Below, piece by piece: positions 447-33,787 of a stretch of 64,000 nucleotides of DNA. Numbering within the stretch: position 1 is the first letter of the stretch; the number at the start of each line of letters is the position of its first letter. The notes beneath the pieces were generated by a model. That model made no database searches. It was not told where the DNA came from and was given only the letters and a program-made list of their open reading frames with translations. The position numbers and the translations under genes are program-made. The DNA is from a virus, in the IMG/VR virus record IMGVR_UViG_3300021088_000009, one strand, 5' to 3'.

Positions 447-491
447 CTCAAAGGGTTGACACCCCAGGATCAGGCGGGTAGGTTCTGGGGT
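447..491 (+). promoter_or_regulatory. phage early promoter copy P1 (CTCAAAGGGTTGACA-N17-TAGGTT)
   Basis: -35 TTGACA at 456-461. -10 TAGGTT at 479-484. Flanked by the inverted repeat gttgacacccc/ggggtgtcaac. Confidence 0.6.
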
Positions 492-523
492 GTCAACACA
501 ACTACACCGCCACGGAGGATCTG

Positions 524-628
524 ATGTTCAGCTACCTGACCGCCTTGTTCACCACGATCGACAGCGACGTGTACGCCACGGTCACGTGGGTGTGGAACGG
601 GGTGCTCGCGGTCGCCGACCTGTTCTGA
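524..628 (+). CDS. 34-aa hydrophobic peptide (MFSYLTALFTTIDSDVYATVTWVWNGVLAVADLF)
   Basis: GGAGGA RBS 5 nt upstream. Strong GC3 bias. Lies just downstream of promoter copy P1. Below the 60-aa track cutoff. Confidence 0.4.
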   Translation: MFSYLTALFTTIDSDVYATVTWVWNGVLAVADLF

Positions 629-649
629 GTGGGGTTCACTCGAACGGAC

Positions 650-691
650 CAACTCAAGGAGTTGACATCCCGTCTAGACGCGATTAATGTT
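650..691 (+). promoter_or_regulatory. promoter copy P2
   Basis: CTCAAGGAGTTGACATCCCG with -35 at 663-668. -10 TAATGT at 686-691. 17-nt spacer. Confidence 0.6.
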
Positions 692-731
692 CTTCCCGTC
701 AGCACGGAACGCCGAAGCCCCGGAGGACACC

Positions 732-1091
732 ATGAATCCCACGATCACCATCAGCGCCACCTACACCCCCGACAACAAGCCGCAGAGTTTCGCCGCGTGC
801 GGCCCGGAGCGGGCCAGCCGGGAGGCGGCCGAGGCGGACCTGGACTTCTTCCCGAAGATGACCAAGTTCGTCGTGGCGCGCGTGGGGTTCTTCCAGGATG
901 GTCAGTCGGGTCATTACTTCCAGATCCGGACGTCGGCGGCCTTGGCGGCGAACGGGGTCAACGGCGGGGTGAACGAGACGGGCGTGAAGCGGTATCGCGC
1001 GGTGGTGCGTAACGCGCCGGTGGTGGCATGGAAGGGCGACGAGTTCGTGAACAACTACTCGACGCGGGACGCGTTCGAGGCGGCTCTGTGA
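732..1091 (+). CDS. hypothetical protein (ANGVNG-motif family)
   Basis: CCGGAGGA RBS, ATG start. Lies downstream of promoter copy P2. Shares the motif AANGVNGgVN with the gene at 2184-2369. Confidence 0.65.
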   Translation: MNPTITISATYTPDNKPQSFAACGPERASREAAEADLDFFPKMTKFVVARVGFFQDGQSGHYFQIRTSAALAANGVNGGVNETGVKRYRAVVRNAPVVAWKGDEFVNNYSTRDAFEAAL

Positions 1092-1120
1092 CGACCGGCC
1101 TGGGGTGTCATCCTTTCAGC

Positions 1121-1162
1121 CTAGCTCAAAGGGTTGACATCCCGGGCCACCTTGATTAGTGT
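1121..1162 (+). promoter_or_regulatory. promoter copy P3
   Basis: CTCAAAGGGTTGACATCCCG with -35 at 1134-1139. -10 TAGTGT at 1157-1162. Confidence 0.65.
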
Positions 1163-1208
1163 CGTAGACAGCACGGAACAACCACCCCACGGAACCAAGG
1201 AGAATCCC

Positions 1209-1580
1209 ATGGCACACGAGATCCGTTGCGGCAACCGCACCGGGCACCGGTCGGAGCTTCCCGAGTACCACCGCACCGTGGAGGGGGTGCGCCGCTGCTA
1301 CCAGGGCACTGGGTTCCCGTGCAACTGGAACGTTCAGGTGCACACCGAGGATGGTCTGGTGGTGCGGGAGTGCTACGACGTGTCGGGCGCGATGGCGTGG
1401 GAGAACGAGCGGGGGTGGGAGTGCGAGTCGGGCCATGAGCACGTGCGTGACGACGTGCGCCGGGCGGAGGGCTGGGAGTACTGCGCAGACGACTGGGACG
1501 TGAAGGCCGTGATGGCGGGCGGCCGGATGCCGGTGGGCATGGACGGCGGGTCGTACACGAACTGGGGTGTTTCGGCCTGA
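1209..1580 (+). CDS. hypothetical Cys/Trp-rich protein
   Basis: AAGGAGAAT RBS, ATG start. Lies downstream of promoter copy P3. 123 aa. Confidence 0.65.
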   Translation: MAHEIRCGNRTGHRSELPEYHRTVEGVRRCYQGTGFPCNWNVQVHTEDGLVVRECYDVSGAMAWENERGWECESGHEHVRDDVRRAEGWEYCADDWDVKAVMAGGRMPVGMDGGSYTNWGVSA

Positions 1581-1586
1581 TCACTC

Positions 1587-2108: not shown

Positions 2109-2146
2109 CTCAAGGAGTTGACATCCCGGCCGGTGCCGACTAGTGT
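2105..2146 (+). promoter_or_regulatory. promoter copy P4
   Basis: CTCAAGGAGTTGACATCCCG with -35 at 2118-2123. -10 TAGTGT at 2141-2146. Confidence 0.65.
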
Positions 2147-4751: not shown

Positions 4752-4791
4752 CACTCAAGGGGTTGACATCCCGTCTGTGACCGGCTAGTGT
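4752..4791 (+). promoter_or_regulatory. promoter copy P5
   Basis: CTCAAGGGGTTGACATCCCG with -35 at 4763-4768. -10 TAGTGT at 4786-4791. Confidence 0.65.
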
Positions 4792-4828: not shown

Positions 4829-5584
4829 GTGACCGAGCCGAGTGACAAGATCCTCAACCGCATCCGTGGCCTACTGGACAAGGCCGCGTCCACCGAGTAC
4901 GAGGGGGAGGCCCAAGCCCTCCGGGACAAGGCCATGGAGTTGATGGCCGCCTACGGCATCGAACAGGCCGTGCTGGAAGCCACCGGCCGCAAGGCGGCCG
5001 ACACCGTCGACAAGCTCACGATCCTGTTCAAGAACCCGTTCAGCTACGAGAAGCACAACCTGTTGCTGAACATCGCGAACGCGCTCAGCTGCAAGACACT
5101 GTGCTTCAAGTCTGGTAAGTCCGTCGATCAAACCGTGGTGGTCGGCCACACCGGCGACCTGGAACGCGTCGAATTCCTGTACACGCTCCTGCTGGTGCAA
5201 GCCGAGAACGGCGCGGCCAAGGTGAAGGCCGGCTACGGCGGCTTCTACACCCCCCGCGAGGTGGCCGCTCAAACCCGCTCGTTGCGGGCCGCGTACCTCG
5301 CTGGTTTCGGTGAGGAGATCGGCGACCGCCTGACCGCCCTCACTCAGAACGCGGCCACCCAGAACGACGCCGAACACGCGGGCGACGGCACACCGGGCGC
5401 GGCCCTGGTCCTGACGTCCCGCAAGGAGATGGTGGACCGCCAGTTCCAGGAGTGGTTCCCGCACACGAAGATGGGCGGCGGCCGCACCTATAACGGCGAC
5501 GGGTGGGCGGCCGGTCGGGCTGGTGGCCGCAACGCGGACCTCGGCCAGGATCGGTTCGGCACACGCGGCAAGGCCCTGACCTGA
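4829..5584 (+). CDS. DUF2786-like protein
   Basis: Lies downstream of promoter copy P5. AAGGAG RBS. The N-terminal motif ILNRIRGLLDKAASTEYEGEAQALRDKAMELMAAYGI matches the DUF2786 signature. Confidence 0.6.
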   Translation: MTEPSDKILNRIRGLLDKAASTEYEGEAQALRDKAMELMAAYGIEQAVLEATGRKAADTVDKLTILFKNPFSYEKHNLLLNIANALSCKTLCFKSGKSVDQTVVVGHTGDLERVEFLYTLLLVQAENGAAKVKAGYGGFYTPREVAAQTRSLRAAYLAGFGEEIGDRLTALTQNAATQNDAEHAGDGTPGAALVLTSRKEMVDRQFQEWFPHTKMGGGRTYNGDGWAAGRAGGRNADLGQDRFGTRGKALT

Positions 5585-9379: not shown

Positions 9380-9411
9380 CTCTTGACAAACCGTAAAACC
9401 CTGGTTAGGAT
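9380..9411 (+). promoter_or_regulatory. promoter copy P11 overlapping the terminator hairpin
   Basis: -35 TTGACA at 9383-9388. -10 TAGGAT at 9406-9411. 17-nt spacer. Confidence 0.45.
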
Positions 9412-9428
9412 TCCCTAACCAGGGTTTT
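9389..9428 (+). terminator. rho-independent terminator overlapping promoter copy P11
   Basis: Perfect 13-bp stem aaccctggttagg/cctaaccagggtt followed by TTCGTTT. Confidence 0.65.
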
Positions 9429-9452
9429 CGTTTACCGTAGGAGAACACCACG

Positions 9453-14325: not shown

Positions 14326-14499
14326 ATGGGTGAGGACAGGTCGCCGGACCGGCACGGGTGGGCGTCTCGGGCGTTCGACGCGGTGGCGGAGTGGTTGTTG
14401 CCGGATCCGACGGCACGGGTGGAGCGTGCGTTGCGGGAGTTCAAGGCCCGTGAGCAGCGGGAACAGGGTCCTGACGAGAAACCTTCCCAGAAGGGTTGA
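14326..14499 (+). CDS. hypothetical 57-aa protein
   Basis: GGGAGGTG RBS, ATG start. High GC3. Its end overlaps promoter copy P6. Confidence 0.35.
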   Translation: MGEDRSPDRHGWASRAFDAVAEWLLPDPTARVERALREFKAREQREQGPDEKPSQKG

Positions 14500-14524
14500 C
14501 AACCCGGAAAGCCGTGGGTAATGT
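14485..14524 (+). promoter_or_regulatory. promoter copy P6 (heads the tRNA array)
   Basis: AGAAGGGTTGACAACCCGG with -35 at 14496-14501. -10 TAATGT at 14519-14524. Confidence 0.55.
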
Positions 14525-15359: not shown

Positions 15360-15397
15360 CGTTTGACAGTCTCGGTAGAGCATGGTAGCTTTAATCC

Positions 15398-21152: not shown

Positions 21153-21155
21153 CCC

Positions 21156-22907: not shown

Positions 22908-22912
22908 GCGAA

Positions 22913-22956: not shown

Positions 22957-22994
22957 TTCAAGGAGTTGACTACCCGGGAACTCTCGGGTAGGGT
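22957..22994 (+). promoter_or_regulatory. promoter copy P7
   Basis: TCAAGGAGTTGACTACCCGGG with -35 at 22966-22971. -10 TAGGGT at 22989-22994. Confidence 0.55.
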
Positions 22995-23021: not shown

Positions 23022-24953
23022 GTGCACACGTCGCCCTCGTTCGAGAAGCTGTTGGACTACACCGGTTTCAGCCGACGCCCACAACAGGACGCCCTGATGT
23101 CGGCCCTGTCCGCACCCCGCGACACCCCCATCTTCGTCCAAGCCGGAACCGGCGTCGGCAAATCCTTCGCGGTCCTGTCCCGCGCGGCCGACATCGGCAC
23201 CCCCGGCCGCCCCGCCGTCGTCGCCTCGGTGACCAACAGCCTCCTTAACCAGTACGTGGACAAGGATCTCCCCCGCGTCGCCGACGCCACCGGCATCACC
23301 TTCGTCCGCGTGCTCGGCGCGAAGAACTACCTGTGCGCCGACTCCGAAGCCGGCAAACTCGCCGGCGTCAACGACCTCACCCCCGGTGAGCGGGACCGGT
23401 GGATGTACAGCCTGTGCAAGCCGTCCACCAACCCGGCGACGCTGGGCGAGTGGCGCGCGGAAGGCCTCGACTTCACCTACGCCTGCCCCGGATCCGGTTC
23501 CTGTAAAGGAAACATGCGCGTATGGGTGCACGCCCCAGAATGCGACAAGTCCTGTGAGGACACGTGCGAGAACGGCTACCGGGGCGACGACGTGTATGGC
23601 GGGTGCGCGTCCAAGCGGGCCCGGTCCCGCGCGTGGGAAGTGAACATTGTCTTGACGAACTTCCACTTCCTGTACTTCCACCAGTACGTGCTGGAGACCA
23701 CGGCCGAGTCCGGCAACCCGGTGGAGTTGTTGCCGCCGTGGTCGGACCTGTTGATCGATGAAGCGCACCACCTTCCCGAGACGGTGCGGGATCTGCGGAC
23801 CCGGATCATCAAGGAGGGCACCGGAAACCTGATCTTCGCGTTCGAGGATGGCGTGGACCCGCCGGAGGTGTGCGAACAGAACCGGAAGCTGATCAAGGCC
23901 ACGAAGGGGATCATCACGTTCGCCACGGAGGTCCGCAAGCCGTGGGGCAAGTGGGACACCGAACGCCCCATCAACACCGTCCGCACCCCCGGTGAGGTCC
24001 AGTTCCTGGCCAAGTATCGGGACAAGCTCAGCGAGTTCGACGGCGCACCGGTCACCGAAGAGATCAACGGCGAACAGGTCCAGACCTTCGGACGCAGCAC
24101 CCTCGCTGACTTGGCGACGGTGTCCGAGCTCATGCAAGGCGGCGACGCGCAATTGAAGTGGACCGCCTTGCACGGTGAGGAGAACCCGGGCCAGATCAAG
24201 CTGATTCCGATCACCGCGCATGAGTCGTTCGTGGCGCGCATGATCGGCACCGGCGCGTTGGTGACCGGCACGGCCGGGGACACGTTGCCGCGCCGGTGCG
24301 GCGTGTACGACCCGGCGGTGAAGGTCGTGGACGTGGGGCACCCGTTCCGGTACGCCACACAGGTCCGTGGCTGGATTTCCCAGTATTCCGGGGTGAAGTC
24401 CAACGCGAACGACTCCGACGTCGTCAAGGCACGCCTGGCGGAGGTCGCGGCGTTCACTGCCGGGCATCCGTCGCTGGTGTTGTGCACGTCGCATGCGGAC
24501 GTGAAGTTGGTGGCGAACACGCTGTCCCGGAAGGCGCATGTGTTTCTTCAGCCCCGGGAGGGTGGTTCGATCGCGGCAAACGAGGTCGCGGCACAGTATC
24601 GAGCCATGGCGGAGCGGGGCTGTCCGGCGGTGTTGATCGGCACGTCCAGTTACGCAACCGGCCTGGACCTTCCCGGTGACCTGTTGACCCGCGTTGTGCT
24701 CTGGTCGTTTTTCGGGATGGCGGATCACGTGGCACAGCAGATGTCGCGCCGATACTCGGGATTCGTGGAGGAACAGCGGCACACGCGGGTGGTGCAGTCC
24801 GCCGGCCGCCTGATCCGCACGGACACCGACCAGGGGGAGATCCTGGTGTCCGACTGCCGTTTCTGGGACTTGTTGCGGCGGGTCAAGAAGTACGAGTTGG
24901 TGTTGGACAAGCATCTGTTGGAAATCCCCTGGCAGAAATACCCCAGGAGTTGA
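23022..24953 (+). CDS. DinG/Rad3-like (XPD-family) SF2 helicase with Fe-S Cys cluster
   Basis: 643 aa. Lies downstream of promoter copy P7. Walker A motif QAGTGVGKS. DEAH box in LLIDEAHHL. Cys-rich insert between the two motifs (C..C..C..C). Confidence 0.75.
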   Translation: MHTSPSFEKLLDYTGFSRRPQQDALMSALSAPRDTPIFVQAGTGVGKSFAVLSRAADIGTPGRPAVVASVTNSLLNQYVDKDLPRVADATGITFVRVLGAKNYLCADSEAGKLAGVNDLTPGERDRWMYSLCKPSTNPATLGEWRAEGLDFTYACPGSGSCKGNMRVWVHAPECDKSCEDTCENGYRGDDVYGGCASKRARSRAWEVNIVLTNFHFLYFHQYVLETTAESGNPVELLPPWSDLLIDEAHHLPETVRDLRTRIIKEGTGNLIFAFEDGVDPPEVCEQNRKLIKATKGIITFATEVRKPWGKWDTERPINTVRTPGEVQFLAKYRDKLSEFDGAPVTEEINGEQVQTFGRSTLADLATVSELMQGGDAQLKWTALHGEENPGQIKLIPITAHESFVARMIGTGALVTGTAGDTLPRRCGVYDPAVKVVDVGHPFRYATQVRGWISQYSGVKSNANDSDVVKARLAEVAAFTAGHPSLVLCTSHADVKLVANTLSRKAHVFLQPREGGSIAANEVAAQYRAMAERGCPAVLIGTSSYATGLDLPGDLLTRVVLWSFFGMADHVAQQMSRRYSGFVEEQRHTRVVQSAGRLIRTDTDQGEILVSDCRFWDLLRRVKKYELVLDKHLLEIPWQKYPRS

Positions 24954-25005
24954 CCAGTCAATACTGGTCGGCTAGACTCCGGCCTGTCTGACTCAAGGAG
25001 GTCAC

Positions 25006-25560: not shown

Positions 25561-26366
25561 GTGAGCACAACGGCACCCGACCCATCCCATCGTCCTGGGT
25601 CACCGGGGCCATGGTCGGACTCGACACGGAAACCACTGGTGTCGACCCCGAGAACGACCGCATCGTGACCGCGACCGTGATCGCGGACATTCCGGGCTAC
25701 CCGCTGGAAATCAGCAACTGGACGATCGACCCTGGGGTGGAGATCCCGGCGGCCGCGTCCGAGATTCACGGGGTCACCACGGAGCACGTGCGGGAGAACG
25801 GCCAGCGGCCGATGGTCGCGGTGTGGGACATCTGGGACACGATCGCCGCGTACTGGCGAGACGACACTCCGCTGGTGATCTACAACGCGCCGTTCGACCT
25901 GACGTTGTTGGATCGGGAGTTGGCGCGGCACGGGTACGGCGGTCTGGAGATCCGGGGGCCGGTGATCTGTCCGCTGACGATTGACCGTGCTGTGGACCGC
26001 TACCGCAAGGGCAAGCGGACCCTGACGGATCTGTGCAAGTTTTACGGGGTGGAGCTGGTCAACGCGCACACGTCGGAGGCGGACGTGGCGGCCACGTTGA
26101 TGATCGCCCGCATCATCGGCGAGAAGTACCCGGCCGTGGGCACCGCGTCACTGGAGAAGCTGAACCAGCACCAAAAGGCGTGGTACCACAACTGGGCAAT
26201 GAACTTCGCGGCGTATCTGGTCAGGTCCGCGCATGAGGTGAGCGCGGCCGAGGAAGAACGTCTGCGTGCGATGGTCGACAACTTGAAGGCCAACGCGAGG
26301 AACTGGCCCATGATTCCGGCCAGTGGAGACTTCCATCCCGCACAACGCGGAGATGGGAACGAGTAA
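25557..26366 (+). CDS. DnaQ-like DEDDh 3'-5' exonuclease (Pol III epsilon-like)
   Basis: Exo I motif GLDTETTG. Exo II motif YNAPFD. Exo III motif HTSEADVAAT. 269 aa. Confidence 0.8.
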   Translation: MSEHNGTRPIPSSWVTGAMVGLDTETTGVDPENDRIVTATVIADIPGYPLEISNWTIDPGVEIPAAASEIHGVTTEHVRENGQRPMVAVWDIWDTIAAYWRDDTPLVIYNAPFDLTLLDRELARHGYGGLEIRGPVICPLTIDRAVDRYRKGKRTLTDLCKFYGVELVNAHTSEADVAATLMIARIIGEKYPAVGTASLEKLNQHQKAWYHNWAMNFAAYLVRSAHEVSAAEEERLRAMVDNLKANARNWPMIPASGDFHPAQRGDGNE

Positions 26367-26392
26367 CGCACTAACACCAAGGAGTGTGGCTT

Positions 26393-27286
26393 ATGGGTAT
26401 TTTTGTGGTGGGCTGTCTGCTGGGGGTCATTGCCCTGATCGGGGTCGTGGTCGCCATTGGCGGCCGCGACGATGAGGGAATGTTGGTCGGTGGTGCTGTC
26501 ACGGCCATCGTCGCGGGTCTTCTCAGCGGTGGCCTCATCATCGCGGACTCCCACGTGAGCGTGGACGCGAACACGGTGGCCATCATTCAGGAGTTCGGGA
26601 AGCCCGTTGGCGACCCGGCGGGGCCGGGCTGGAACTGGACCGCGCCGTGGGCGACCGCGTCCGTGATCGACACGAAGGTGCAGACCACGGCGCGGCTGGC
26701 CGGCGACAAGGGCGACACGCCGGGCGCGGACTGCGTGAAGGTCAACTTCAAGGACAACGCGTCGGCGTGCGCGGACATCACCATCTCCTACCGGGTGTCG
26801 TCCGAGAACGCGGTGAAGTTGTGGCGCAACTACAGCTCCCTGGATGACGCCCGGGACAAGCTGTTGCGGCCGGCGACCGACAGCGCTGCGCGGGAGGTGT
26901 ATGGCTCGTTCACGTCCTTGGACGTGATCGACGGGTCCAAGCAATCGGCCATCACTGACGGCATCACCAGTTCATTGCGCGCCAAGCTGGCCAGCTCCGG
27001 CCTGGACCTGGTGTCGGTGGCCCCGGGCCAGATCCACCTGTCCGACTCGGCTCAGGCGAACCTGGACAAGCTCCGCAACGCCCAGGTGGAGACGCAGGTG
27101 GCGCAGCAGACGCTGGCGAAGAACCAGGCGTTGGCAGCGGCGAACAACGCGTTGAACGCGTCGCTGACCGACGGCATCAAGTTCGAGGACTGCCTCAACG
27201 TGGCGCGGGACATCAAGACGGTGGGCTTTTCGTGTACCGGTTCGGGGTCGAACATGCTCTTGAACGTGTCCGGGTCGAACAAGTAG
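26393..27286 (+). CDS. SPFH/band-7 (stomatin/prohibitin-like) membrane protein
   Basis: AAGGAG RBS. N-terminal TM helix. The SPFH-like core begins with TVAIIQEFGKP. Coiled-coil C-terminus. Confidence 0.65.
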   Translation: MGIFVVGCLLGVIALIGVVVAIGGRDDEGMLVGGAVTAIVAGLLSGGLIIADSHVSVDANTVAIIQEFGKPVGDPAGPGWNWTAPWATASVIDTKVQTTARLAGDKGDTPGADCVKVNFKDNASACADITISYRVSSENAVKLWRNYSSLDDARDKLLRPATDSAAREVYGSFTSLDVIDGSKQSAITDGITSSLRAKLASSGLDLVSVAPGQIHLSDSAQANLDKLRNAQVETQVAQQTLAKNQALAAANNALNASLTDGIKFEDCLNVARDIKTVGFSCTGSGSNMLLNVSGSNK

Positions 27287-27297: not shown

Positions 27298-27348
27298 TGG
27301 CGGCCCGTGCTCCTTCCCGAAGGGGGCGCGGGCCGCTGCTGTTTTCTG
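27298..27348 (+). terminator. rho-independent terminator
   Basis: Stem gcggcccg...cgggccgc followed by TGCTGTTTTCTG. Confidence 0.55.
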
Positions 27349-27356: not shown

Positions 27357-27401
27357 TCAAGGCTAGAAGAGTTGACAACCCGGGGATATACGACTAGTGT
27401 C
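27357..27401 (+). promoter_or_regulatory. promoter copy P8
   Basis: CTCAAGGCTAGAAGAGTTGACAACCCGGGG with -35 at 27373-27378. -10 TAGTGT at 27396-27401. Confidence 0.6.
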
Positions 27402-27433: not shown

Positions 27434-28027
27434 ATGACACAAGCCGGATGGGTGGATCACGGCAACGGCCGCCACAGCTTCCGACCCGCCGGGTCCCTCA
27501 ACATCCCCCGGCCCACCCCAACGACCATCCCCCGGCCCGCGCCGGACGCGGCCACCGTCACCACCGTGGAAGGACACGACGTCCCCTCCCCCCACGACGA
27601 GTCCGTGAACGGACTGCTCCGGCGGCTGATCTTCCTCAACACCCAACTCAAGACAACCGAGGGAAGCGTCAAGACCCTCAAGGCGGAGATCCGGGAAGTC
27701 GACGAGAAAATCCGCGAGCACTGGGCCGAGGAGAACATCAACCAGGCCGGCATCGAAGGCAAGATTGCCTACCTGTATCCCGTGTACCACGTGGAAAAGG
27801 TGGACGGTGCGTCCACTGACGACATCCGCCAGGCACTCCGGGACGCCGGCCTTGACTACATGATGTCGGAGAACTACTCCGCGTCATCGCTCACGGCGTA
27901 CCTGAAGGAGCTCCGCCAGGCCGGCGACGAACCGCCCGCACCGCTCGCGGCCGTCGTCAAACTCGTCCCCAGCTCCGTGATCCGCCTCAAGGAAGCCGGC
28001 GCACGGACCGCGCCCATCGCCTACTGA
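27434..28027 (+). CDS. hypothetical protein (Pro-rich N-terminus, coiled-coil)
   Basis: Lies downstream of promoter copy P8. AAGGAGG RBS, ATG start. 197 aa. Confidence 0.65.
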   Translation: MTQAGWVDHGNGRHSFRPAGSLNIPRPTPTTIPRPAPDAATVTTVEGHDVPSPHDESVNGLLRRLIFLNTQLKTTEGSVKTLKAEIREVDEKIREHWAEENINQAGIEGKIAYLYPVYHVEKVDGASTDDIRQALRDAGLDYMMSENYSASSLTAYLKELRQAGDEPPAPLAAVVKLVPSSVIRLKEAGARTAPIAY

Positions 28028-28161
28028 TCACAGTTTCCCGGCACCCGGCGGCAACACGCCGGACACCCGGGCGGGCGGCTGTACTCTCGCGAGACACCGC
28101 CCACACCTCCCGCCCCGGCGGGAGTTCCTTCACCCATCACCCCTCAAGGAGCATGATCCAC

Positions 28162-29004
28162 ATGGCTGGCACCGACGTGGCCAAGAAGGCCACCGGGGCG
28201 GTTGTCGAGATCTCCGACGACTTCCGCGCCAAGTACGGCCGCGCCCTCGTTCCCGACGACGACATGGCTGAGCTCATGGCCGAGACGTTCGGCGACGACG
28301 AACCCGGCATCCGCGACCTGGTCCACATCAAGTTCCCCACCGGCGGGGAAACCTCGTGGATCGTCACCAAGGGCGGCAACAAGCAACTGGTCAGCGAGCT
28401 GATCGGCGTGCTGGTCCTCCAGAACCCGCAGCGCGTGTTCTGGTCCGACCCGGACCCCAAGAACAACCCGCCCGAGTGCATGAGCATGGACGGCAAGAAG
28501 CCCCTCGACGGCGGCGTGTTCACCGCTGACGGCCCCGGCGTCATGATTAACGGCGCGATGGTCACCAACCCTGGCGGCACATGCAAGACGTGCCCCATGG
28601 CCCAGTGGGGCTCCGACCTCAAGGGCCGCGCCGGACAGGGCTGCAAGGAACGCAAGCTGCTGTTCCTGATCACCGAAGGCTCCATGCTGCCCACCGTGGT
28701 CACCGTGCCGCCCGCGTCCCTCAAGTCGTTCAAGGACTTCGTGTACGGCCTGGCCACCGACGGCGTCGGCTACTGGGGCGTGGAGATCGGCCTGGGCCTG
28801 GTCGGCGCGACCGCCAAGGACGGCACCGACTACGCGGCGCTCAAGCCCCGCGTCATCCGGCCCCTGACCGACGCGGAGACCGGCGCGGCCAAGGAGTACA
28901 AGGAAATGGTGAAGGCGTGGGTGGCGAATTCGCCCGCGACGATGTTCGTGGAGAACACCGCCGACTCCGGCGGTGAGGTGAACCTGGAGGACTACGACTC
29001 GTGA
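28162..29004 (+). CDS. hypothetical protein
   Basis: AAGGAG RBS, second ATG chosen as start. About 280 aa. Carries the motifs CKTCP...GCKER. Confidence 0.6.
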   Translation: MAGTDVAKKATGAVVEISDDFRAKYGRALVPDDDMAELMAETFGDDEPGIRDLVHIKFPTGGETSWIVTKGGNKQLVSELIGVLVLQNPQRVFWSDPDPKNNPPECMSMDGKKPLDGGVFTADGPGVMINGAMVTNPGGTCKTCPMAQWGSDLKGRAGQGCKERKLLFLITEGSMLPTVVTVPPASLKSFKDFVYGLATDGVGYWGVEIGLGLVGATAKDGTDYAALKPRVIRPLTDAETGAAKEYKEMVKAWVANSPATMFVENTADSGGEVNLEDYDS

Positions 29005-31178
29005 GCAATGCCGGGCAGGACATTAGCGCGTTCTGCTCGGCGCTTCTCGGCGGTGGAGACGGAACCGGAGACGACCGACTTTCGGGATACTCGGTTTCCG
29101 TCTTCTCTCTTCCAGACAGGGTGACGCGATGGATTCCGGCGGAGGTCCCGGAAGCCATCGCGTCAGCTGTCTCGGAACTGGCTGGCCGCCAACCAAGCGC
29201 CGTGCACGCGGTGTACATCGGACTCGGTTTCGTGCCAAACGAAATCGCGAAGCGCAAGGAGGCAGCCAAGAAGGGGCAACGCGCGGAGGCGGGGGATATT
29301 GCTGGTATCCCGGGCCTTTGGGCCGATATCGACATCGCAGGGCACGGGCACAAGAAAGCCGGCCTGCCGGCTAGCGTCAAATCCGCGATGAAAATCCTGG
29401 ACGCCTGCGGTGTGCCGCCCACCCTGATCGTGCACACCGGCAACGGCATTCAGGCGTGGTGGGCGTTCTCCGAACCGTTGATCTTCGACAACGACAACGA
29501 GAAAGCCGCTATCGCCGCACTCGCCCGCGACTGGAACCTGACACTCAAAATCCGGGCGCGGGAAGCCGGCGGCTGGGAAGCCGGCGTGGACTCCGTGTTC
29601 GACCTCACCCGGTTGATGCGCGCCGTGGGCACCACCAACACCAAGGACGCGGACGGCCAGCACGGCGGTCCCGTCGAAGGACACCGCCCGGTGCGGATCC
29701 TCCGCAACAACGGCTACACCTACGACCCAGACGACTTCCGAGGATTCCTCGCCGACGACATGGCGCTGGCGTCCCTGACCGCCGTGAAGGCGGTCAGCGG
29801 CGCGGACGCGACCACGTTGCCGAACGTGGACCTCCCGGCGGTGTGGCGGCGGGTGCGCGCCGACATGGCCCGCGACCACAACTACATGCCCCAGTTCGTG
29901 GGGCTCATGATCGAAGCCGGCCACGACAAGGTGGAGGACACTTGGCACGGCCGGCGACCCGACCTCAACGGCGACCAGTCCGCGTACGACGCGGCGCTGG
30001 TCCGGATGCTGTACGACAGTGGCGCGTCGCCGGAACAGCTCGTGGAGGCGGTCATGTGCCGCCGGTTGCGGAGCAAGGACACCGACAAAGTGGATCCCGC
30101 GCGCCGCACCGACTATGTGGTGCGGACCGTGCTGAACGTGACCGCGTTGGCGGAGAAGGCCAACGCGGGCCGTAACGAGCTGGCCGGGAAACTTCAGGCG
30201 TTGCGGGACGTGCCGCCCGTGGTGGTGGACGCGTCAGCCGTGAGCGTTCCCGTCCCGGCCCCGGCCGAACCCGTGGCCGCGCTTGAACCGGCCGAGGCCG
30301 CCCCGACGCTGGTCGTGGTGACCGAACCGGAACCCGAACCCGCACAGGAAGCCACGCCCGAACCCGCGCCCGTGGAACGCAACGCGGCGTCCGCGAACGT
30401 GCTGGAAGTGCTGGATCTTCTCCTGATCCCCCAGAAGTTCCGGGACATCGGAGTGCGCACGGTGGGCATGGAGCACCGCGACTACGGCGAGAACCAGAAG
30501 GGCCGCCTGATCTTCGACATCCCGCCTGGCTACCAGTGGCCCGGGTCGGGCCCGGCGCTGTATCGGCCGGGGAAACCGTTGAAGGCCGAGTGGTACCGCA
30601 AGGACATTTTCGAGGTGCCCAAGGGGTATCAGACGACGTTGAAGCGGGACGCGATGATCCCGTCCCGCCACGTTGGGAAAAACAAAGAAGAATGGGAAGC
30701 CGTCATTGAGGAGTTGACGGGGCACTGGGAACGCGATTCCAGCGGCGCGGACCTGGCGACCACCGTCAGCGACTGGTTGCGGAACTATTTGACATCGCAC
30801 GCGCCGACCACCGTGGAGTTCGAGGCGGTGGACAACAAGCGCGCGTACATGGTGGACACCGGCAACTGGGGCGCGAACGGTACCCCGCGCGTGTGGTTCC
30901 TGTTCTCCGCGTTCGCCGAGTTCGTGTCGGCGCAGCCCGGCGGCCGGAACTACGCGGGCCGCGCGGCCCGCAACCTCATCGACTACTTGCATGTGCAAGA
31001 ACTTCCTCGGCCGCGCATGACTGGCCCCGACGGCCAGAAACGACGCACCAACTGGTTCGAAATCGAACCGGACCAGTTCGGCATGGACGACTGGGGGCTG
31101 GTGCTGGAAATCGCCCAGGAGCACATGACATCCGGTGAGGAACGGCGCATGAAAGCAATTCAGGGAGGTCTGGCGTGA
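29001..31178 (+). CDS. bifunctional DNA primase/polymerase (PrimPol, AEP family) N-terminal domain protein
   Basis: 725 aa. D-x-D motif in LWADIDIAGHGHKK. SGxGxH-type motif in HTGNGIQAWW. Confidence 0.65.
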   Translation: MSNAGQDISAFCSALLGGGDGTGDDRLSGYSVSVFSLPDRVTRWIPAEVPEAIASAVSELAGRQPSAVHAVYIGLGFVPNEIAKRKEAAKKGQRAEAGDIAGIPGLWADIDIAGHGHKKAGLPASVKSAMKILDACGVPPTLIVHTGNGIQAWWAFSEPLIFDNDNEKAAIAALARDWNLTLKIRAREAGGWEAGVDSVFDLTRLMRAVGTTNTKDADGQHGGPVEGHRPVRILRNNGYTYDPDDFRGFLADDMALASLTAVKAVSGADATTLPNVDLPAVWRRVRADMARDHNYMPQFVGLMIEAGHDKVEDTWHGRRPDLNGDQSAYDAALVRMLYDSGASPEQLVEAVMCRRLRSKDTDKVDPARRTDYVVRTVLNVTALAEKANAGRNELAGKLQALRDVPPVVVDASAVSVPVPAPAEPVAALEPAEAAPTLVVVTEPEPEPAQEATPEPAPVERNAASANVLEVLDLLLIPQKFRDIGVRTVGMEHRDYGENQKGRLIFDIPPGYQWPGSGPALYRPGKPLKAEWYRKDIFEVPKGYQTTLKRDAMIPSRHVGKNKEEWEAVIEELTGHWERDSSGADLATTVSDWLRNYLTSHAPTTVEFEAVDNKRAYMVDTGNWGANGTPRVWFLFSAFAEFVSAQPGGRNYAGRAARNLIDYLHVQELPRPRMTGPDGQKRRTNWFEIEPDQFGMDDWGLVLEIAQEHMTSGEERRMKAIQGGLA

Positions 31179-31918
31179 TCGAGGTGATAGCCGGCGTCCG
31201 TGACCTGTGCGCGTACTGCGGTGCCCTGTGCGACTGGTGGTGGCGCGGCGCGGACTTCTACGCCTGCGTCCATCCGCAGTGCGCGGAGCACCTGGCGGCC
31301 CGCTGTCCGGCCCTTCTCGGCCGGGCGGCGGCCGCCGTGGTGGTCAACGCCCCCGCGCGGCGTGGTGCGTACGCACGGCGGGGAGGCGTCCAGACGGCGG
31401 CGCTGTTCATCCCGTCCCGGTTCGCGGGGCACACCCGCAACGACGCGTGGCTGGCGGTGGCGGAGACGAACACGGGACAGGTCACCGTGCCTTGTGGCGG
31501 CAACGCGGGACACGGCGTGTCGGTGATGTGGAACTGGGAACTGTTGGCCGTGGGCGGCCAGCCGATCGGTAACGGCGGGGTGCGTGCGATCGGGGGGGCG
31601 CTGTTCGATCCGGACGGTGAGGCGGCAATGGCGTGGGGCTGGCAGCCGGAACGCGGTCAGCCCGCGTATGAGCCGATCTACCAGGTCCAAGACTGGTTCA
31701 CGTGCCCGCAGTGCGGCATGTGGGTGTGGCCTGGCCGGTGGGTGCGTGTCGCGGACCGGGCGTGCCGCTGGTGCCTGTCGGGCACAGACAACCGGACGTG
31801 GCCGGTGGAGGCGGACTTCCCAGGAGACGCGTTCGTCCCTGATCATATGAGGGATGACGCCCCGAAGGGGCGGCGACGGCGCACCGTGAAGGAGTTCAAC
31901 CGTGGAGAGCACGATTAA
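31175..31918 (+). CDS. hypothetical Cys-rich (zinc-finger) protein
   Basis: GTGA start/stop overlap with the upstream gene. 247 aa. Multiple CxxC pairs. Confidence 0.6.
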   Translation: MIEVIAGVRDLCAYCGALCDWWWRGADFYACVHPQCAEHLAARCPALLGRAAAAVVVNAPARRGAYARRGGVQTAALFIPSRFAGHTRNDAWLAVAETNTGQVTVPCGGNAGHGVSVMWNWELLAVGGQPIGNGGVRAIGGALFDPDGEAAMAWGWQPERGQPAYEPIYQVQDWFTCPQCGMWVWPGRWVRVADRACRWCLSGTDNRTWPVEADFPGDAFVPDHMRDDAPKGRRRRTVKEFNRGEHD

Positions 31919-32069
31919 CAGCTCGACAGCGTTTCACCCGTTTCGGTGGATCTTCGGCGCGCTGGTGGCGGTGGTGGTGGCGTACCTGGTGGGTGTGGGT
32001 GTGAACAGCCCGGCCCCGGCGGCACAGTGCACGTACGTTCCGCCTACTGCGGTTGCTCCGACACGGTGA
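31902..32069 (+). CDS. 55-aa small membrane protein
   Basis: AAGGAG RBS, 7-nt spacer, GTG start. Overlaps the upstream gene's 3' end by 17 nt. TM helix IFGALVAVVVAYLVGVGV. Strong GC3. Confidence 0.45.
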   Translation: MESTINSSTAFHPFRWIFGALVAVVVAYLVGVGVNSPAPAAQCTYVPPTAVAPTR

Positions 32070-32074
32070 TGGTG

Positions 32075-32105
32075 AAGCCGCCCCTGGTGGGCGGCTTCTC
32101 TCTCG
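32075..32105 (+). terminator. rho-independent terminator
   Basis: Stem gaagccgccc/gggcggcttc followed by TCTCTC. Confidence 0.55.
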
Positions 32106-32117
32106 CCCAAGACCCCA

Positions 32118-32150
32118 ACACTTGACAAACCAAGCTTGCTTGGCTAGTTT
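32118..32150 (+). promoter_or_regulatory. promoter copy P10 with palindromic spacer (candidate operator)
   Basis: -35 TTGACA at 32122-32127. Spacer contains the palindrome CCAAGCTTGCTTGG. -10 TAGTTT at 32145-32150. Lies upstream of the HTH regulator gene. Confidence 0.55.
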
Positions 32151-32174
32151 CATTCCTGAAAGGAGAGTCAGCAC

Positions 32175-32531
32175 ATGGCCGAACACGAAGAGGAACGCGC
32201 GTGTCGACGCTGCAACCTGCCGATGACGGGCAGCCGCAACGCCGAACCCGGCGAACGGAAACACGTGTCACGCGGCCTGTGTTCAAGCTGCTACTACGGC
32301 GTCCGCACCCGGGGGGAACTGGACCTGTACCCACTCCTCCAAAACAACCGGGAGGACATCGTGGCGGCGTTCGTCGCCGCCCGCACAGCTGACCCGAAAA
32401 TCAGTCAGGAAGACGTCGCGAAATCCCTCGGGATTCACCGAACCACCCTCGCGATGAACCTGCGTCGGGCCGTCGAGTTGGGAGACCCTCGCGTCACCAA
32501 CAGCGGCGGAGTCCTCGACATCGTCAACTAG
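32175..32531 (+). CDS. HTH transcriptional regulator with N-terminal zinc ribbon
   Basis: Lies downstream of promoter copy P10. GAAAGGAGAG RBS. HTH motif ISQEDVAKSLGIHRTTLAMNLRRA. Confidence 0.65.
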   Translation: MAEHEEERACRRCNLPMTGSRNAEPGERKHVSRGLCSSCYYGVRTRGELDLYPLLQNNREDIVAAFVAARTADPKISQEDVAKSLGIHRTTLAMNLRRAVELGDPRVTNSGGVLDIVN

Positions 32532-32551
32532 CACACCAAGGAGTCCCACCT

Positions 32552-33514
32552 GTGACAACGATCAAAACCAAGAGCGTCGGAGACATGCTCGGAACGTTCG
32601 GCCTTCAGTTCGGATCCCTCCCGGCCGGGGTGGAGCGCTACACCGTCGTCATCGACGCGGCCGCCGCCACCCGCCTGCTCAATGCCAACGAAGGCAACCG
32701 GCGACTCAACCAGACCCTGGCCTTCTCCTACGCCCGCATGATGGAAGAGCCCGGCGGCTGGCCGTACGTCGGAGACCCGATCCGCGTCGACAAGACCGGT
32801 CGCCTCCTGGACGGCCAGCACCGCCTGCGGGCCGTGGAACTGTGCGGCGTGCCGCTGACCGTCGACATCATCCTGGGCCTGGAACCGGAAACCCAGGACA
32901 ACATGGACGTCAACGCCACCCGCAAGGCGTCCCACCAGGTCGCCATGGCCGGCGTCAAGCACGCCGTGGCAGCGGCCCCGGCGGCCCGGCTGCTCATGCG
33001 ATGGGGCTTCCACGACGACCCGGAGCGGGAGACGTGGACGCTGGCATCGGACACCTTCGCCCCGGCGCGGCCGGAGATCACACAGTGGGTGCGGCGGCAC
33101 AAGGACGCGATCGAGCGGTCCAGTGGGCTGGCGTTCGCTGCGTTCAACGCGATGGGCATCAAGCCGTCGGTGGCGGCGGCCTTGCACTTCCGGGCCTCCC
33201 GGATCAGCCTGGCCTACGCGGACGAGTTCCTGTACTCCCTGCGTACAGGGGAGGACATGAGCGCGGGCAACCCGATCCTGACACTCCGGAACAAGATCAT
33301 CCGTCAGAAGCGGGACTCCATCCGCGAGGAACAGGACCCCCAGCTGTACCACGCGGTCACCGCCTGGAACTGGTGGATCGCGCGCAAGCCGACCTACAAG
33401 CTTCAGTCGCCCCGGAACGAGCCGATCCGGGCCGGGAGCGAGATCAAGTTGTCCACCAAGATCCTGTTGGTGGACGGCGAGAAGTGGGCCCCGAAGGAGA
33501 AGGACGAGAAGTGA
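32552..33514 (+). CDS. ParB-like nuclease-domain (ParB/Srx N-terminal domain) protein
   Basis: 320 aa. DGQHRLRAV motif (the ParB DGxHR signature). AAGGAG RBS, GTG start. Confidence 0.65.
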   Translation: MTTIKTKSVGDMLGTFGLQFGSLPAGVERYTVVIDAAAATRLLNANEGNRRLNQTLAFSYARMMEEPGGWPYVGDPIRVDKTGRLLDGQHRLRAVELCGVPLTVDIILGLEPETQDNMDVNATRKASHQVAMAGVKHAVAAAPAARLLMRWGFHDDPERETWTLASDTFAPARPEITQWVRRHKDAIERSSGLAFAAFNAMGIKPSVAAALHFRASRISLAYADEFLYSLRTGEDMSAGNPILTLRNKIIRQKRDSIREEQDPQLYHAVTAWNWWIARKPTYKLQSPRNEPIRAGSEIKLSTKILLVDGEKWAPKEKDEK

Positions 33515-33762
33515 TCTCAGACATCACGCTGTCCGTCTTGGGCGTGGTGGTGGTGACGCTCCCGTACGTGCGCTGGTATGTGCGGGAGCGTCGTCATGCC
33601 CAGGACATCGTTGTGCACGCGGAGTTCATGACCTGGGTGGCCGCGTTGGAGCGGGCCGGCTACGAGCAGGCACGGGACATCAACACTGTGGCCATCATCG
33701 CGCGATACCAACGTGGCCGGCGGCGGAGTATGGAGGCCGCCCTCGCTCGCTCAAAGGGTTGA
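33511..33762 (+). CDS. hypothetical small membrane protein
   Basis: GTGA start/stop overlap with the upstream gene. 83 aa. N-terminal TM helix. Confidence 0.5.
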   Translation: MISDITLSVLGVVVVTLPYVRWYVRERRHAQDIVVHAEFMTWVAALERAGYEQARDINTVAIIARYQRGRRRSMEAALARSKG

Positions 33763-33787
33763 CTAGTCGGACTGGCACGGGTAGTCT
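33749..33787 (+). promoter_or_regulatory. promoter copy P9
   Basis: CTCAAAGGGTTGACTAGTCGG with -35 at 33759-33764. -10 TAGTCT at 33782-33787. Confidence 0.55.

What the first reader, a model, noticed from the sequence alone, without database searches (positions are those of the whole stretch)
447..33787. Eleven copies of an extended early-promoter motif CTCAARGGRTTGACA-N17-TAGTGT
Copies lie at about 456, 663, 1134, 2118, 4763, 9383, 14496, 22966, 27373, 32122 and 33759. Each pairs a consensus -35 TTGACA/TTGACT with a TANNGT/TAGTGT -10 at exactly 17-nt spacing, matching actinobacterial sigma-70 (HrdB-type) promoters. Seven copies also share the upstream block CTCAA(A/G)GG(G/A)G and a CCCGG right after the -35. 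That suggests an UP-like element or the binding site of a phage regulator. P1 sits inside a 12-bp inverted repeat. P10's spacer is the palindrome CCAAGCTTGCTTGG, upstream of an HTH regulator. P11 overlaps a terminator hairpin. These copies define the operon structure of the early and replication arm.
Basis: seen in the sequence. Interest (0 to 1): 0.6.

Follow-up and report, generated by a model that had tools for sequence, protein, structure and literature searches.

The report
Repeated early promoter cassettes, soil phage
An uncultured soil phage that probably infects an actinobacterium carries 14 copies of a near-consensus host-type promoter in front of its early, tRNA and replication genes; the motif is real and longer than an ordinary promoter, but it is a familiar kind of phage feature.

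Summary
TTGAC[A/T]-N17-TANNNT occurs 13 times in the window against 0.14 expected. A 14th copy has TTGACC. All copies lie on the + strand between 160 and 33787. None lies in the structural-gene arm or on the - strand. All eleven reported copies are confirmed, and I add 160, 15363 and 24950.

Eleven of the 14 sit 24-46 nt upstream of a Shine-Dalgarno sequence and start codon. One heads the 27-tRNA array.

Related soil-metagenome phage contigs carry the same motif. In 134 copies not selected on their flanks the consensus is YCAARGAG-TTGACA-TCCC-N10-GR-N-TAGTGT. C+9 and G+20 are each 97% conserved. The upstream block never occurs without a -10 at the right distance (94 of 95 at 17 nt, one at 18).

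The best reading is a set of strong promoters for the host principal sigma factor, reiterated as hairpin-promoter-leader cassettes. Homology between relatives starts exactly at these cassettes, and gene order differs from cassette to cassette. This resembles the PeSL elements of T4-like phages.

The role of the extra conserved positions is unresolved. They could be added polymerase contacts or the site of a phage regulator. Transcription itself was not tested. This is a new member of a known kind, of modest interest.

The parts
151..188 (+). Promoter copy P0 (new): ACCTAAGGG-TTGACA-N17-TAGTTT. It drives the 72-aa HTH_17 protein gene at 219-437.
447..497 (+). P1: CTCAAAGGG-TTGACA-N17-TAGGTT. 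A perfect 13-bp inverted repeat (455-467 / 485-497) brackets the -10. It drives a ~34-codon ORF that starts at 524.
653..690 (+). P2: CTCAAGGAG-TTGACA-TCCCGT-..-TAATGT, followed by the leader tcttcccGTCAGCACGGAACG. It drives the gene at 732-1091. An upstream hairpin ends in GTTCACTCGAACGG.
1125..1162 (+). P3: CTCAAAGGG-TTGACA-TCCCGG-..-TAGTGT. It drives the gene at 1209-1580. Homology to relatives starts at 1126.
2109..2146 (+). P4: CTCAAGGAG-TTGACA-TCCCGG-..-TAGTGT, followed by the leader tcttcttGTCAGCAC. It drives the genes from 2184 onward.
4754..4791 (+). P5: CTCAAGGGG-TTGACA-TCCCGT-..-TAGTGT. It drives the DUF2786 gene at 4829-5584 and the genes after it. Homology to relatives starts at 4750.
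9383..9434 (+). P6: bare TTGACA-N17-TAGGAT without the extended blocks. Its -10 lies in the 5' arm of a perfect 15-bp hairpin (9395-9428) followed by TTTTCGTTT. This is a terminator overlapping a promoter, conserved with compensatory changes in L032. It drives 9453-9638 and the SNF2 helicase operon.
14487..14524 (+). P7: CCAGAAGGG-TTGACA-ACCCGG-..-TAATGT, followed by the leader tctcggtGTCAGGAC. It lies 155 nt upstream of the first of 27 tRNA genes (14679-20579).
15363..15391 (+). Bare TTGACA-N17-TAGCTT (new), directly after tRNA-Gln and before the HNH endonuclease ORF at 15398-15787. This is the weakest candidate and may be a chance match or a leaderless-type promoter.
22957..22994 (+). P8: TTCAAGGAG-TTGACT-ACCCGG-..-TAGGGT. 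It drives the DinG-like helicase gene at 23022-24953. A terminator hairpin with a T-run lies just upstream (22911-22945). Homology to six relatives starts at 22959.
24941..24978 (+). Copy with TTGACC (new): CCCCAGGAG-TTGACC-N17-TAGACT. It overlaps the end of the helicase gene and drives 25006-27286 (exonuclease, SPFH).
27363..27400 (+). P9: CTAGAAGAG-TTGACA-ACCCGG-..-TAGTGT. An 18-bp terminator hairpin (27298-27338) followed by TGTTTTCT lies upstream. It drives 27434-31918, which includes the primase/polymerase gene.
32122..32150 (+). P10: bare TTGACA-N17-TAGTTT. The spacer holds the inverted repeat CCAAGC-TT-GCTTGG. A hairpin (32077-32095) followed by TTCTCTCTC lies upstream. It drives the HTH gene at 32175-32531.
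33750..33787 (+). P11: CTCAAAGGG-TTGACT-N17-TAGTCT, followed by the leader ttcgggtGTCAGGAACC. It drives 33821 to about 41400 (PD-(D/E)XK nuclease, UvrD helicase, Lsr2).

Best explanation
These are strong promoters for the host RNA polymerase carrying its principal sigma factor (sigma-A/HrdB type). They are reiterated in front of the early, tRNA and replication transcription units of an uncultured soil siphovirus-like phage whose host is probably an actinobacterium.

Each copy is part of a roughly 100-nt cassette with these elements, in order:
1. an optional stem-loop or terminator that insulates the unit from upstream transcription;
2. YCAARGAG abutting the -35;
3. TTGACA;
4. TCCC;
5. a variable 10 nt;
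6. G-R-N;
7. TAGTGT;
8. a pyrimidine-rich 7-nt discriminator;
9. a purine start, often GTCAG;
10. an unstructured leader of about 30 nt, with a Shine-Dalgarno sequence and start codon.

Shown here: the sequence anatomy, the statistics, the position and orientation of the copies, the conservation in relatives, and the coincidence of the cassettes with module boundaries.

Inferred: the host holoenzyme recognises the -35 and -10 immediately after infection. The extra, nearly invariant positions (CAA/GAG upstream, CCC at about -27, G at -15) increase promoter strength or give one protein a common handle on all the promoters. The hairpins terminate or process read-through transcripts. The repeated cassettes serve as recombination points that shuffle early genes, as proposed for PeSLs in T4-like phages.
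For: Statistics in the window:
- 13 matches against 0.14 expected, all on the + strand.
- The extended block gives 6 against 0.06 expected.
- No copies lie beyond 33.8 kb or on the - strand.
- No copies occur in 27 structural-arm loci of relatives.

Geometry:
- 11 of 14 window copies have a Shine-Dalgarno sequence and start codon 24-46 nt after the -10.
- In the family the figure is 118 of 137, with a median of 38 nt.
- This matches the commonest 5'-UTR length class (30-39 nt) and the TANNNT -10 found in S. coelicolor (PMC4895711).
- The spacer is 17 nt in 94 of 95 family copies that carry the upstream block and 18 nt in one. No copy lacks a -10.
- The 8th nt after the -10 is a purine in 71% of copies. 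GTCAG sits in exactly that phase in 48 of 168 copies, against 2 of 168 in a control window.
- The leader is unstructured (-10.4 against -19.1 kcal/mol), while -60..+23 is more structured than random windows (p = 2e-9).

Conservation:
- In 134 family copies not selected on their flanks, C-7 is 81% conserved, A-5 96%, G-1 84%, C+9 97% and G+20 97%.
- In six orthologues of P8 the upstream DNA is unrelated, and identity begins at CAA.GAGTTGAC.

Cassettes and shuffling:
- blastn blocks start at window positions 1126, 4750 and 22959.
- The order of cassette-borne genes differs among relatives, for example F11/F2.
- Perfect stems of at least 8 bp occur in 35% of copies against 10% of random windows.
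- Terminator-like hairpins lie upstream of P8, P9 and P10.

Host and polymerase:
- Host clues are an Lsr2 homologue, an Rv2179c-like exoribonuclease and a GH25 endolysin.
- No phage RNA polymerase or sigma factor was found among the window ORFs screened.
Against: - There are no transcription data, so start sites, timing and strength are all inferred.
- The host is unknown.
- The extended flanks are not generic to actinophage sigma-70-type promoters. The 26 such sites in Streptomyces phage pSt2308 have flat flanks.
- The full extended pattern is at chance level in 185,579 bacterial and archaeal species genomes: 11 single hits. Plain host-polymerase preference therefore does not obviously explain the extra blocks.
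- Only part of the genome was screened for a phage sigma factor or polymerase. The window is 64 kb, while a relative's contig is 94 kb.
- Three copies (9383, 15363, 32122) lack the extended blocks, and 15363 may be a chance match.
- The hairpin component is weak in this window, though strong in several relatives.
Confidence: 0.8

Rival explanations
1. The 18-nt asymmetric block YCAARGAG-TTGACA-TCCC, possibly with G-15, is primarily the binding site of a phage-encoded regulator. One protein would then switch all these promoters together, either shutting early genes off or activating them. Candidates are the 72-aa HTH_17 protein at 219-437 and the HTH protein at 32175-32531. The promoters would still be read by the host polymerase.
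For: - The flanking positions are as conserved as the hexamers themselves. C+9 and G+20 are 97% conserved and A-5 is 96%.
- The flanks are lineage-specific. They are absent from the 26 pSt2308 promoters and at chance level in 185,579 genomes.
- Position -9 differs by phage lineage: CTCAA in the window and GTCAA in all 13 copies of L058.
- GTCAA-RGAG-TTGAC is a partial dyad.
- Small HTH genes sit behind P0 and P10.
- There is precedent in the 13-mer asymmetric repressor sites of cluster A mycobacteriophages, whose orientation follows the direction of transcription (PMC9283540).
Against: - No orphan sites exist. None of 95 upstream blocks lacks a correctly spaced -10, and none lies in the late arm. 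This differs from stoperators.
- The mirror half of the dyad is poorly conserved (G-9 at 48%, T-8 at 54%), while the central GAG is well conserved. That pattern is atypical for a dimer operator.
- No regulator was linked to the motif.
- T4 early promoters also have a long consensus without a dedicated repressor (own knowledge).
Confidence: 0.25
2. The conserved element is a nucleic-acid hairpin rather than a linear promoter extension. GTCAA-RGAG-TTGAC would form the tip of a covarying stem whose 3' arm is the promoter spacer. The element would act as a bifunctional terminator/promoter, as an RNase III-type processing site for read-through RNA, or as a structure-dependent promoter.
For: - In relatives, many copies have copy-specific complementary arms directly flanking the block, for example GGTGGCCCGGG / CCCGGGCCACC, CCCACTCGGGT / ACCCGAGTGGG and GCCACGTGGGG / CCCACGTGGC.
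- 37% of copies reach -15 kcal/mol or better, against 17% in cross-copy controls.
- 32 of the 58 perfect stems of at least 8 bp are centred on RGAG.
- The stem is followed by T-rich sequence: the -10 plus TCTTCTT.
Against: - The hairpin is present in only a minority of copies and in variable register. Per-column covariation is weak, with z of 2-5 at a few positions.
- Only 3 of the 14 window copies (456, 1134, 4763) span the -35 with a stem, and each does so with a different geometry.
- The linear motif is equally conserved in copies without a stem.
- No phage RNA polymerase of the N4 type was found in the window.
- The T-tracts are poor by the standard terminator scan.
Confidence: 0.15
3. The similarity outside the hexamers is only shared ancestry. 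Cassettes would be duplicated and homogenised by recombination, with no function for the flanks.
For: - The cassettes coincide with recombination and module boundaries.
- Paralogous cassettes within one genome are alike over about 100 nt.
Against: - Conservation is position-specific, not uniform. +8, +9, +20 and +21 are 90-98% conserved, while +10..+18 between them is nearly random.
- The same pattern holds across contigs whose DNA is only about 70-80% identical to the window.
Confidence: 0.1

Closest known systems
PeSLs (promoter-early stem-loops) of T4-like myoviruses (Arbiol et al. 2010, PMC2839356; Comeau et al. 2014, PMC4122927)
   Same: Both are reiterated composite cassettes with four features:
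- a stem-loop;
- a near-consensus sigma-70 early promoter with an N17 spacer;
- a Shine-Dalgarno sequence and start codon at the 3' end;
- a location between small early genes, at the boundaries of indels and ORF exchanges between close relatives (compared).
   Different: - The phage lineage and host are unrelated: a high-GC siphovirus-like soil phage, probably of an actinobacterium.
- The -10 is TAGTGT/TANNNT rather than TATAAT.
- There is no A/T-rich upstream tract.
- Extra conserved blocks are present: YCAARGAG, TCCC and G-15.
- The stem-loop is optional and, in relatives, often centred on the -35 rather than lying just upstream of it.
- Recombination at the cassettes is inferred from comparison only.
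Actinobacterial principal-sigma (HrdB/SigA) promoters, e.g. the S. coelicolor TSS map (PMC4895711)
   Same: - The -10 is TANNNT.
- The -35 is of the TTGAC type.
- The 5'-UTR is about 30-39 nt.
   Different: - Host promoters have a weakly conserved -35 (NTGACC) and a variable spacer.
- Here the -35 is essentially invariant, the spacer is fixed at 17 nt, and about 10 further positions are conserved.
Operators and stoperators of cluster A mycobacteriophages (L5 gp71 type; PMC9283540)
   Same: - Many copies of an asymmetric site occur.
- Their orientation follows the direction of transcription.
- They lie in short intergenic gaps.
- The L5 site at Pleft overlaps a TTGACA -35 (own knowledge).
   Different: - Here every site is a complete promoter, with no stand-alone sites.
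- Sites occur in one arm of the genome only.
- No repressor has been identified.
- A temperate lifestyle has not been shown.
Streptomyces phage pSt2308 (PV588686) intergenic promoters
   Same: - It is an actinophage with a tRNA array and a Ro-like gene.
- It has 26 TTGAC[AT]-N17-TANNNT sites.
- One of them, near 11.8 kb of the record, shares the -10 and leader TAGTGTTCTTCCTGTCAGCAAGGAACG and is preceded by a terminator hairpin.
   Different: - The flanks of its promoters are not conserved: there is no CAARGAG, no CCC and no G-15.
- It is a myovirus with 53% GC.
- Its Ro-like protein, the only protein compared, is about 38% identical.
T4 early promoters and phiC31 early promoters with conserved inverted repeats (own knowledge, not checked in the library)
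   Same: - These phage early promoters are reiterated.
- Their consensus extends well beyond the two hexamers.
- In phiC31 the promoters are associated with conserved inverted-repeat operators and terminators in intergenic gaps.
   Different: - The sequences differ.
- phiC31 early promoters are not sigma-70-like.
- The T4 extension is A/T-rich.

Membership tests
Sigma-70 / sigma-A (HrdB-type) -35/-10 promoter | -35 hexamer close to TTGACA | tested here: met
   All 14 copies have TTGAC[A/T/C], and 11 are exactly TTGACA.
Sigma-70 / sigma-A (HrdB-type) -35/-10 promoter | -10 hexamer TANNNT (actinobacterial consensus) at 16-18 nt | tested here: met
   All 14 copies have TANNNT at exactly 17 nt. 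In the family the spacer is 17 nt in 94 of 95 copies. The consensus is taken from PMC4895711.
Sigma-70 / sigma-A (HrdB-type) -35/-10 promoter | Intergenic, co-oriented with and upstream of a gene or RNA gene | tested here: met
   All copies are on the + strand, upstream of + strand genes. Eleven of 14 have a Shine-Dalgarno sequence and start codon 24-46 nt downstream, and one lies ahead of the tRNA array.
Sigma-70 / sigma-A (HrdB-type) -35/-10 promoter | Transcripts start 6-9 nt downstream of the -10; recognition by host holoenzyme | not testable with these tools
   The evidence is only indirect. A purine occupies the 8th nt after the -10 in 71% of copies, and GTCAG sits in a fixed phase.
UP element (alpha-CTD site) | A/T-rich tract between about -40 and -60 | tested here: not met
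   The conserved block spans -44 to -36 and reads YCAARGAG. Positions -45 to -60 carry under 0.2 bit each and are G-rich.
PeSL-type composite terminator/promoter cassette | Early sigma-70-like promoter with N17 spacer, plus a Shine-Dalgarno sequence and start codon at the 3' end | tested here: met
   compared with the description of PeSLs.
PeSL-type composite terminator/promoter cassette | Stem-loop or terminator just upstream of the promoter | tested here: inconclusive
   Perfect stems of at least 8 bp occur in 35% of copies against 10% of random windows. Clear hairpins lie upstream of P8, P9 and P10. Many copies lack one, however, and in relatives the stem often encloses the -35.
PeSL-type composite terminator/promoter cassette | Cassettes lie at the boundaries of indels and ORF exchanges between related phages | tested here: met
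   Homology blocks begin at window positions 1126, 4750 and 22959. The DNA upstream of P8 is unrelated among orthologues. The order of cassette-borne genes differs among relatives.
PeSL-type composite terminator/promoter cassette | Found in hyperplastic regions of T4-like myoviruses | tested here: not met
   The structural genes are of siphovirus type, with a tape-measure protein and no sheath. The MCP and portal are unrelated to T4, and the GC content is 64%. This is therefore an analogue, not a member.
Stoperator/operator system (cluster A mycobacteriophages) | Asymmetric sites also occur away from promoters, throughout the genome | tested here: not met
   None of 95 blocks lacks a -10. No site lies in the late arm or on the - strand.
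Stoperator/operator system (cluster A mycobacteriophages) | Cognate repressor binds the site | not testable with these tools
   Only candidate HTH proteins were found, at 219-437 and 32175-32531.
Hairpin promoters of a phage-encoded RNA polymerase (N4 type) | Phage RNA polymerase gene present; short hairpin is the recognition element | tested here: not met
   No RNA polymerase or sigma domain was found in the window ORFs screened. The hairpin is absent from most window copies. The rest of the genome was not seen.

The most novel reading that the evidence does not exclude
The extra, nearly invariant positions (CAA/GAG at -42..-36, CCC at -28..-26, G at -15), together with the dyad GTCAA-RGAG-TTGAC and the covarying stems that enclose the -35 in relatives, would define a lineage-specific control layer on top of host-type promoters. 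This layer could be a single phage protein that recognises all early promoters at once. It could instead be a bifunctional hairpin that both terminates or processes upstream RNA and carries the -35 of the next unit. Either would be a promoter architecture not described for actinophages.
Probability: 0.2. Interest if true: 0.55.

Novelty: new member of a known kind. Interest (0 to 1): 0.3.

Why it matters
- The motif gives a ready transcription map for a family of uncultured soil phages: 14 units in this window, including the promoter of a 27-tRNA array.
- It provides a set of compact, probably very strong promoters for high-GC Gram-positive hosts.
- It shows that the PeSL principle is not confined to T4-like phages. 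In that principle, each small early gene carries its own hairpin-promoter-leader cassette, and the cassettes mark the points where genes are swapped.
- The lineage-specific extended consensus is a clean target for asking which positions beyond the two hexamers matter for actinobacterial RNA polymerase or for a phage regulator.

Tried and rejected
- **Close relatives in GenBank.** megablast of 12 kb and 20 kb of the window against GenBank phages found nothing. tblastn with the MCP found only 27% hits to Leptospira phages.
- **Generic scan.** The E. coli-style promoter and terminator scan misses these sites, because TAGTGT scores 3 of 6 against TATAAT.
- **Viral-contig scans.** The scan with the DinG-like helicase found no relative. 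The first motif scan of viral contigs gave mostly chance single hits.
- **Genome scan.** The extended pattern gave 11 single hits in unrelated MAGs, about the number I estimated beforehand from the pattern's information content. It gave no clue to the host and showed no host use of the motif.
- **Dyad inside the spacer (CCCG..CGGG).** It is seen in the P8 orthologues but shows no covariation across the family. Rejected as a general feature.
- **Inverted repeat between the -35 block and the start region.** It is real only for the P1 class and is at control level elsewhere.
- **Late-promoter motif in 34-64 kb.** Direct-repeat search gave nothing promoter-like.
- **Y-RNA next to the Ro gene.** No Rfam match at E <= 1.
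- **Literature.** Searches for the motif strings gave nothing relevant. The phiC31 genome paper is not held in the library.

Full report
**What the window is.**
- The window has 64% GC.
- Genes from 1 to about 41.4 kb run on the + strand. They include many small ORFs, an SNF2 helicase, an Rv2179c-like exoribonuclease and 27 tRNA genes at 14679-20579.
- The same arm holds a Ro/TROVE-VWA protein, a DinG-like helicase, an exonuclease, an SPFH protein, a primase/polymerase, a PD-(D/E)XK nuclease, a UvrD helicase and an Lsr2 homologue.
- From 42.4 to 64 kb the genes run on the - strand: a GH25 endolysin, a tape-measure protein, the major capsid protein and the portal.
- This is a siphovirus-like phage with converging early/replication and structural arms.
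- GenBank phages hold no close relative.
- The Lsr2 homologue, the Rv2179c-like exoribonuclease, and Ro-protein hits that are best in Arthrobacter, Streptomyces and Gordonia phages point to an actinobacterial host. That assignment is an inference.

**Checking the observation.**
- TTGACW-N17-TANNNT occurs 13 times against 0.14 expected. All copies are on the + strand between 160 and 33787.
- A 14th copy at 24950 has TTGACC.
- All eleven reported copies are confirmed within 1 nt.
- Three copies are new: 160, 15363 and 24950.
- CTCAARGGRTTGAC with at most 1 mismatch occurs 6 times against 0.06 expected.
- CCCG follows the -35 in seven copies.
- The P1 inverted repeat is real: 13 bp, perfect, at 455-467 and 485-497.
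- The P10 spacer contains CCAAGC-TT-GCTTGG.
- The P11 'terminator' is only a 6-bp stem without a T-run, and the region folds no better than shuffles.

**Position relative to genes.**
- Eleven of the 14 copies have a Shine-Dalgarno sequence and a start codon 24-46 nt after the -10.
- The copy at 14496 lies 155 nt upstream of the first tRNA gene.
- The copy at 456 precedes a ~34-codon ORF.
- The copy at 15363 precedes an HNH endonuclease ORF inserted in the tRNA array.
- Copies are dense at the left end, with six in the first 4.8 kb, each before one or a few small genes. They are sparser over the replication genes.
- No copy lies beyond 33.8 kb or on the - strand.

**Relatives.**
- MCP-based and motif-based scans recovered a family of soil and rhizosphere phage contigs.
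- The early arm of one relative (L032, 78% amino-acid identity in one gene) has 11 copies on the coding strand and none on the other. Twenty-seven structural-arm loci have none.
- Pooling the window and related loci gives 168 distinct copies.
- In the 134 copies that were not retrieved on the basis of their flanks, the consensus is Y-C(81%)-A(82%)-A(96%)-R-G(68%)-A(77%)-G(84%) | TTGACA | T(63%)-C(76%)-C(90%)-C(97%) ... C(70%)-G(97%)-R(98%)-N | T-A-G(82%)-T-G-T | T.
- Positions +10 to +18 between these blocks are nearly random, so the conservation is position-specific.
- In 95 distinct occurrences of the upstream block plus TTGAC, the -10 is at 17 nt in 94 and at 18 nt in one. It is never missing.
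- The block is therefore part of one composite promoter, not a free-standing site.

**Downstream of the -10.**
- The 8th nucleotide after the -10 is a purine in 71% of copies.
- GTCAG begins exactly there in 48 of 168 copies, against 2 of 168 in a control window.
- In the window the leader reads GTCAGCACGGAAC or a variant at 662, 2118, 14496 and 33759.
- The 60 nt after the -10 are far less structured than random windows (-10.4 against -19.1 kcal/mol). The region -60..+23 is more structured (-32.5 against -27.5, p = 2e-9).
- This is what one expects of a start site followed by an open translation-initiation region, preceded by a hairpin.

**Hairpins.**
- Clear terminator-like hairpins lie just upstream of P8, P9 and P10.
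- P6 (9383) is special. Its -10 lies in the 5' arm of a perfect 15-bp hairpin followed by TTTTCGTTT. The hairpin is kept with compensatory changes in L032.
- A transcript that starts at P6 would lack the 5' arm and escape this terminator. That point is inference.
- In relatives, many copies have copy-specific complementary arms that directly flank GTCAA-RGAG-TTGACA, so the -35 lies at the tip of a long stem.
- This is more frequent than in cross-copy controls: 37% against 17% at -15 kcal/mol or better, and 39% against 24% with 16 or more pairs.
- Thirty-two of the 58 perfect stems of at least 8 bp are centred there.
- The feature covers a minority of copies, its register varies, and only three window copies show anything like it.
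- I treat it as an optional terminator or insulator that has come to overlap the promoter, not as the core of the element.

**Cassettes and mosaicism.**
- blastn blocks between the window and relatives begin at the motif: window position 1126, position 4750, and position 22959 in six loci.
- In the alignment of six P8 orthologues the upstream DNA is unrelated. It is a terminator in two, the end of an extra gene in three and another sequence in one. Identity starts at CAA.GAGTTGAC.
- Clustering the first ORF behind each copy shows different orders and contents. The window has F17-F22-F11-F2-F18-F4. L032 has ..F0-F2-F31-F11-F3-F4. L048 has F0-F11-F2-F3-F4. L069 has F0-F2-F34-F3-F4.
- This is the pattern described for PeSLs of T4-like phages. 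Those are composite stem-loop plus early sigma-70 promoter cassettes, ending in a Shine-Dalgarno sequence and start codon, at the boundaries of ORF exchanges (PMC4122927).

**What the extra conserved positions are.**
- They are not a classical UP element. The block lies at -44 to -36, it is not an A/T tract, and -45 to -60 is not conserved.
- They are not generic to actinophage promoters. The 26 TTGAC[AT]-N17-TANNNT sites of Streptomyces phage pSt2308 have flat flanks.
- One pSt2308 promoter does share the -10 and leader TAGTGTTCTTCCTGTCAGCAAGGAACG behind a terminator hairpin.
- The extended pattern is at chance level in one genome of each of 185,579 species.
- The extension is therefore specific to this phage lineage.
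- Two explanations remain: additional contacts that make these promoters outcompete host promoters, or a common site for a phage regulator.
- Small HTH genes follow P0 and P10.
- The lack of orphan sites, and the poor conservation of the mirror half of the dyad, argue against a stoperator-like or dimer-operator system. They do not exclude a regulator that acts only at promoters.

**Verdict.**
- The finding is real and its interpretation is essentially right. This is a reiterated set of host-type promoters that defines the transcription units of the early, tRNA and replication arm.
- It is best described as a PeSL-like cassette system in an uncultured, probably actinobacterial, phage family with its own extended consensus.
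- Transcription, timing and the role of the extra positions are untested.
- It is a new member of a known kind, of modest interest.

Noticed in passing
window 9383-9434; L032 14024-14082: The -10 of this promoter lies inside the 5' arm of a perfect 15-bp hairpin followed by TTTTCGTTT. The hairpin is conserved with compensatory base changes in a relative. Upstream transcripts could terminate here, while transcripts that start at the promoter would lack the 5' arm and read on.
   Followed up: partly
window 455-497; orthologues in L004, L034, L048, L061, L069: The P1-class promoter has a 13-bp perfect inverted repeat (GTTGACACCCCAG / CTGGGGTGTCAAC) bracketing the -10. It is kept in five relatives with a compensatory change (CCCCAG/CTGGGG to CCCCGG/CCGGGG). 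It lies directly after the 72-aa HTH_17 gene (219-437) and may be that protein's operator.
   Followed up: partly
window 14679-20579: An array of 27 tRNA genes (ARAGORN; 25 pass the Rfam threshold) lies in a lower-GC stretch (58%). An HNH endonuclease ORF is inserted at 15398-15787.
   Followed up: partly
window 20580-21155 and 21156-22907: A Ro/TROVE-VWA protein gene follows the tRNA array. The ~400-nt non-coding gap before it contains a tRNA-like T-arm (GGGTTCAATTCCTTG) and ends in a strong hairpin plus TTTTTT near 20990. This could be a Y-RNA-like partner of Ro, but Rfam gives no match at E <= 1.
   Followed up: partly
window 39155-39487: A phage-encoded Lsr2 homologue, with both the dimerisation and DNA-binding domains. 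Lsr2 is an actinobacterial nucleoid-associated silencer of AT-rich DNA. This is the best clue to the host.
   Followed up: no
window 53280-53524 (- strand gene 52968-53531): Four imperfect tandem copies of a ~56-nt unit, spaced 51-72 nt apart, lie inside a structural-arm gene. This implies an internally repeated protein.
   Followed up: no
L082 19900-20030 (Streptomyces phage pSt2308, record ~11.8 kb): A cultured Streptomyces myovirus has a terminator hairpin followed by GAG-TTGACA-N17-TAGTGT-TCTTCCTGTCAGCAAGGAACG. From the -10 onward this is almost identical to the leader of this family's cassettes (BLAST E = 0.08, so it could be chance). The same phage also carries a Ro-like gene and a tRNA array.
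   Followed up: partly
L058 (Ga0105237_10003245), L043, L044, L052: In some relatives nearly every cassette has GTCAA, completing the dyad with TTGAC, plus long covarying arms. The -35 then sits at the tip of a stem of about 16-20 bp. Some of these contigs also carry the motif on both strands, which indicates divergent early units.
   Followed up: partly
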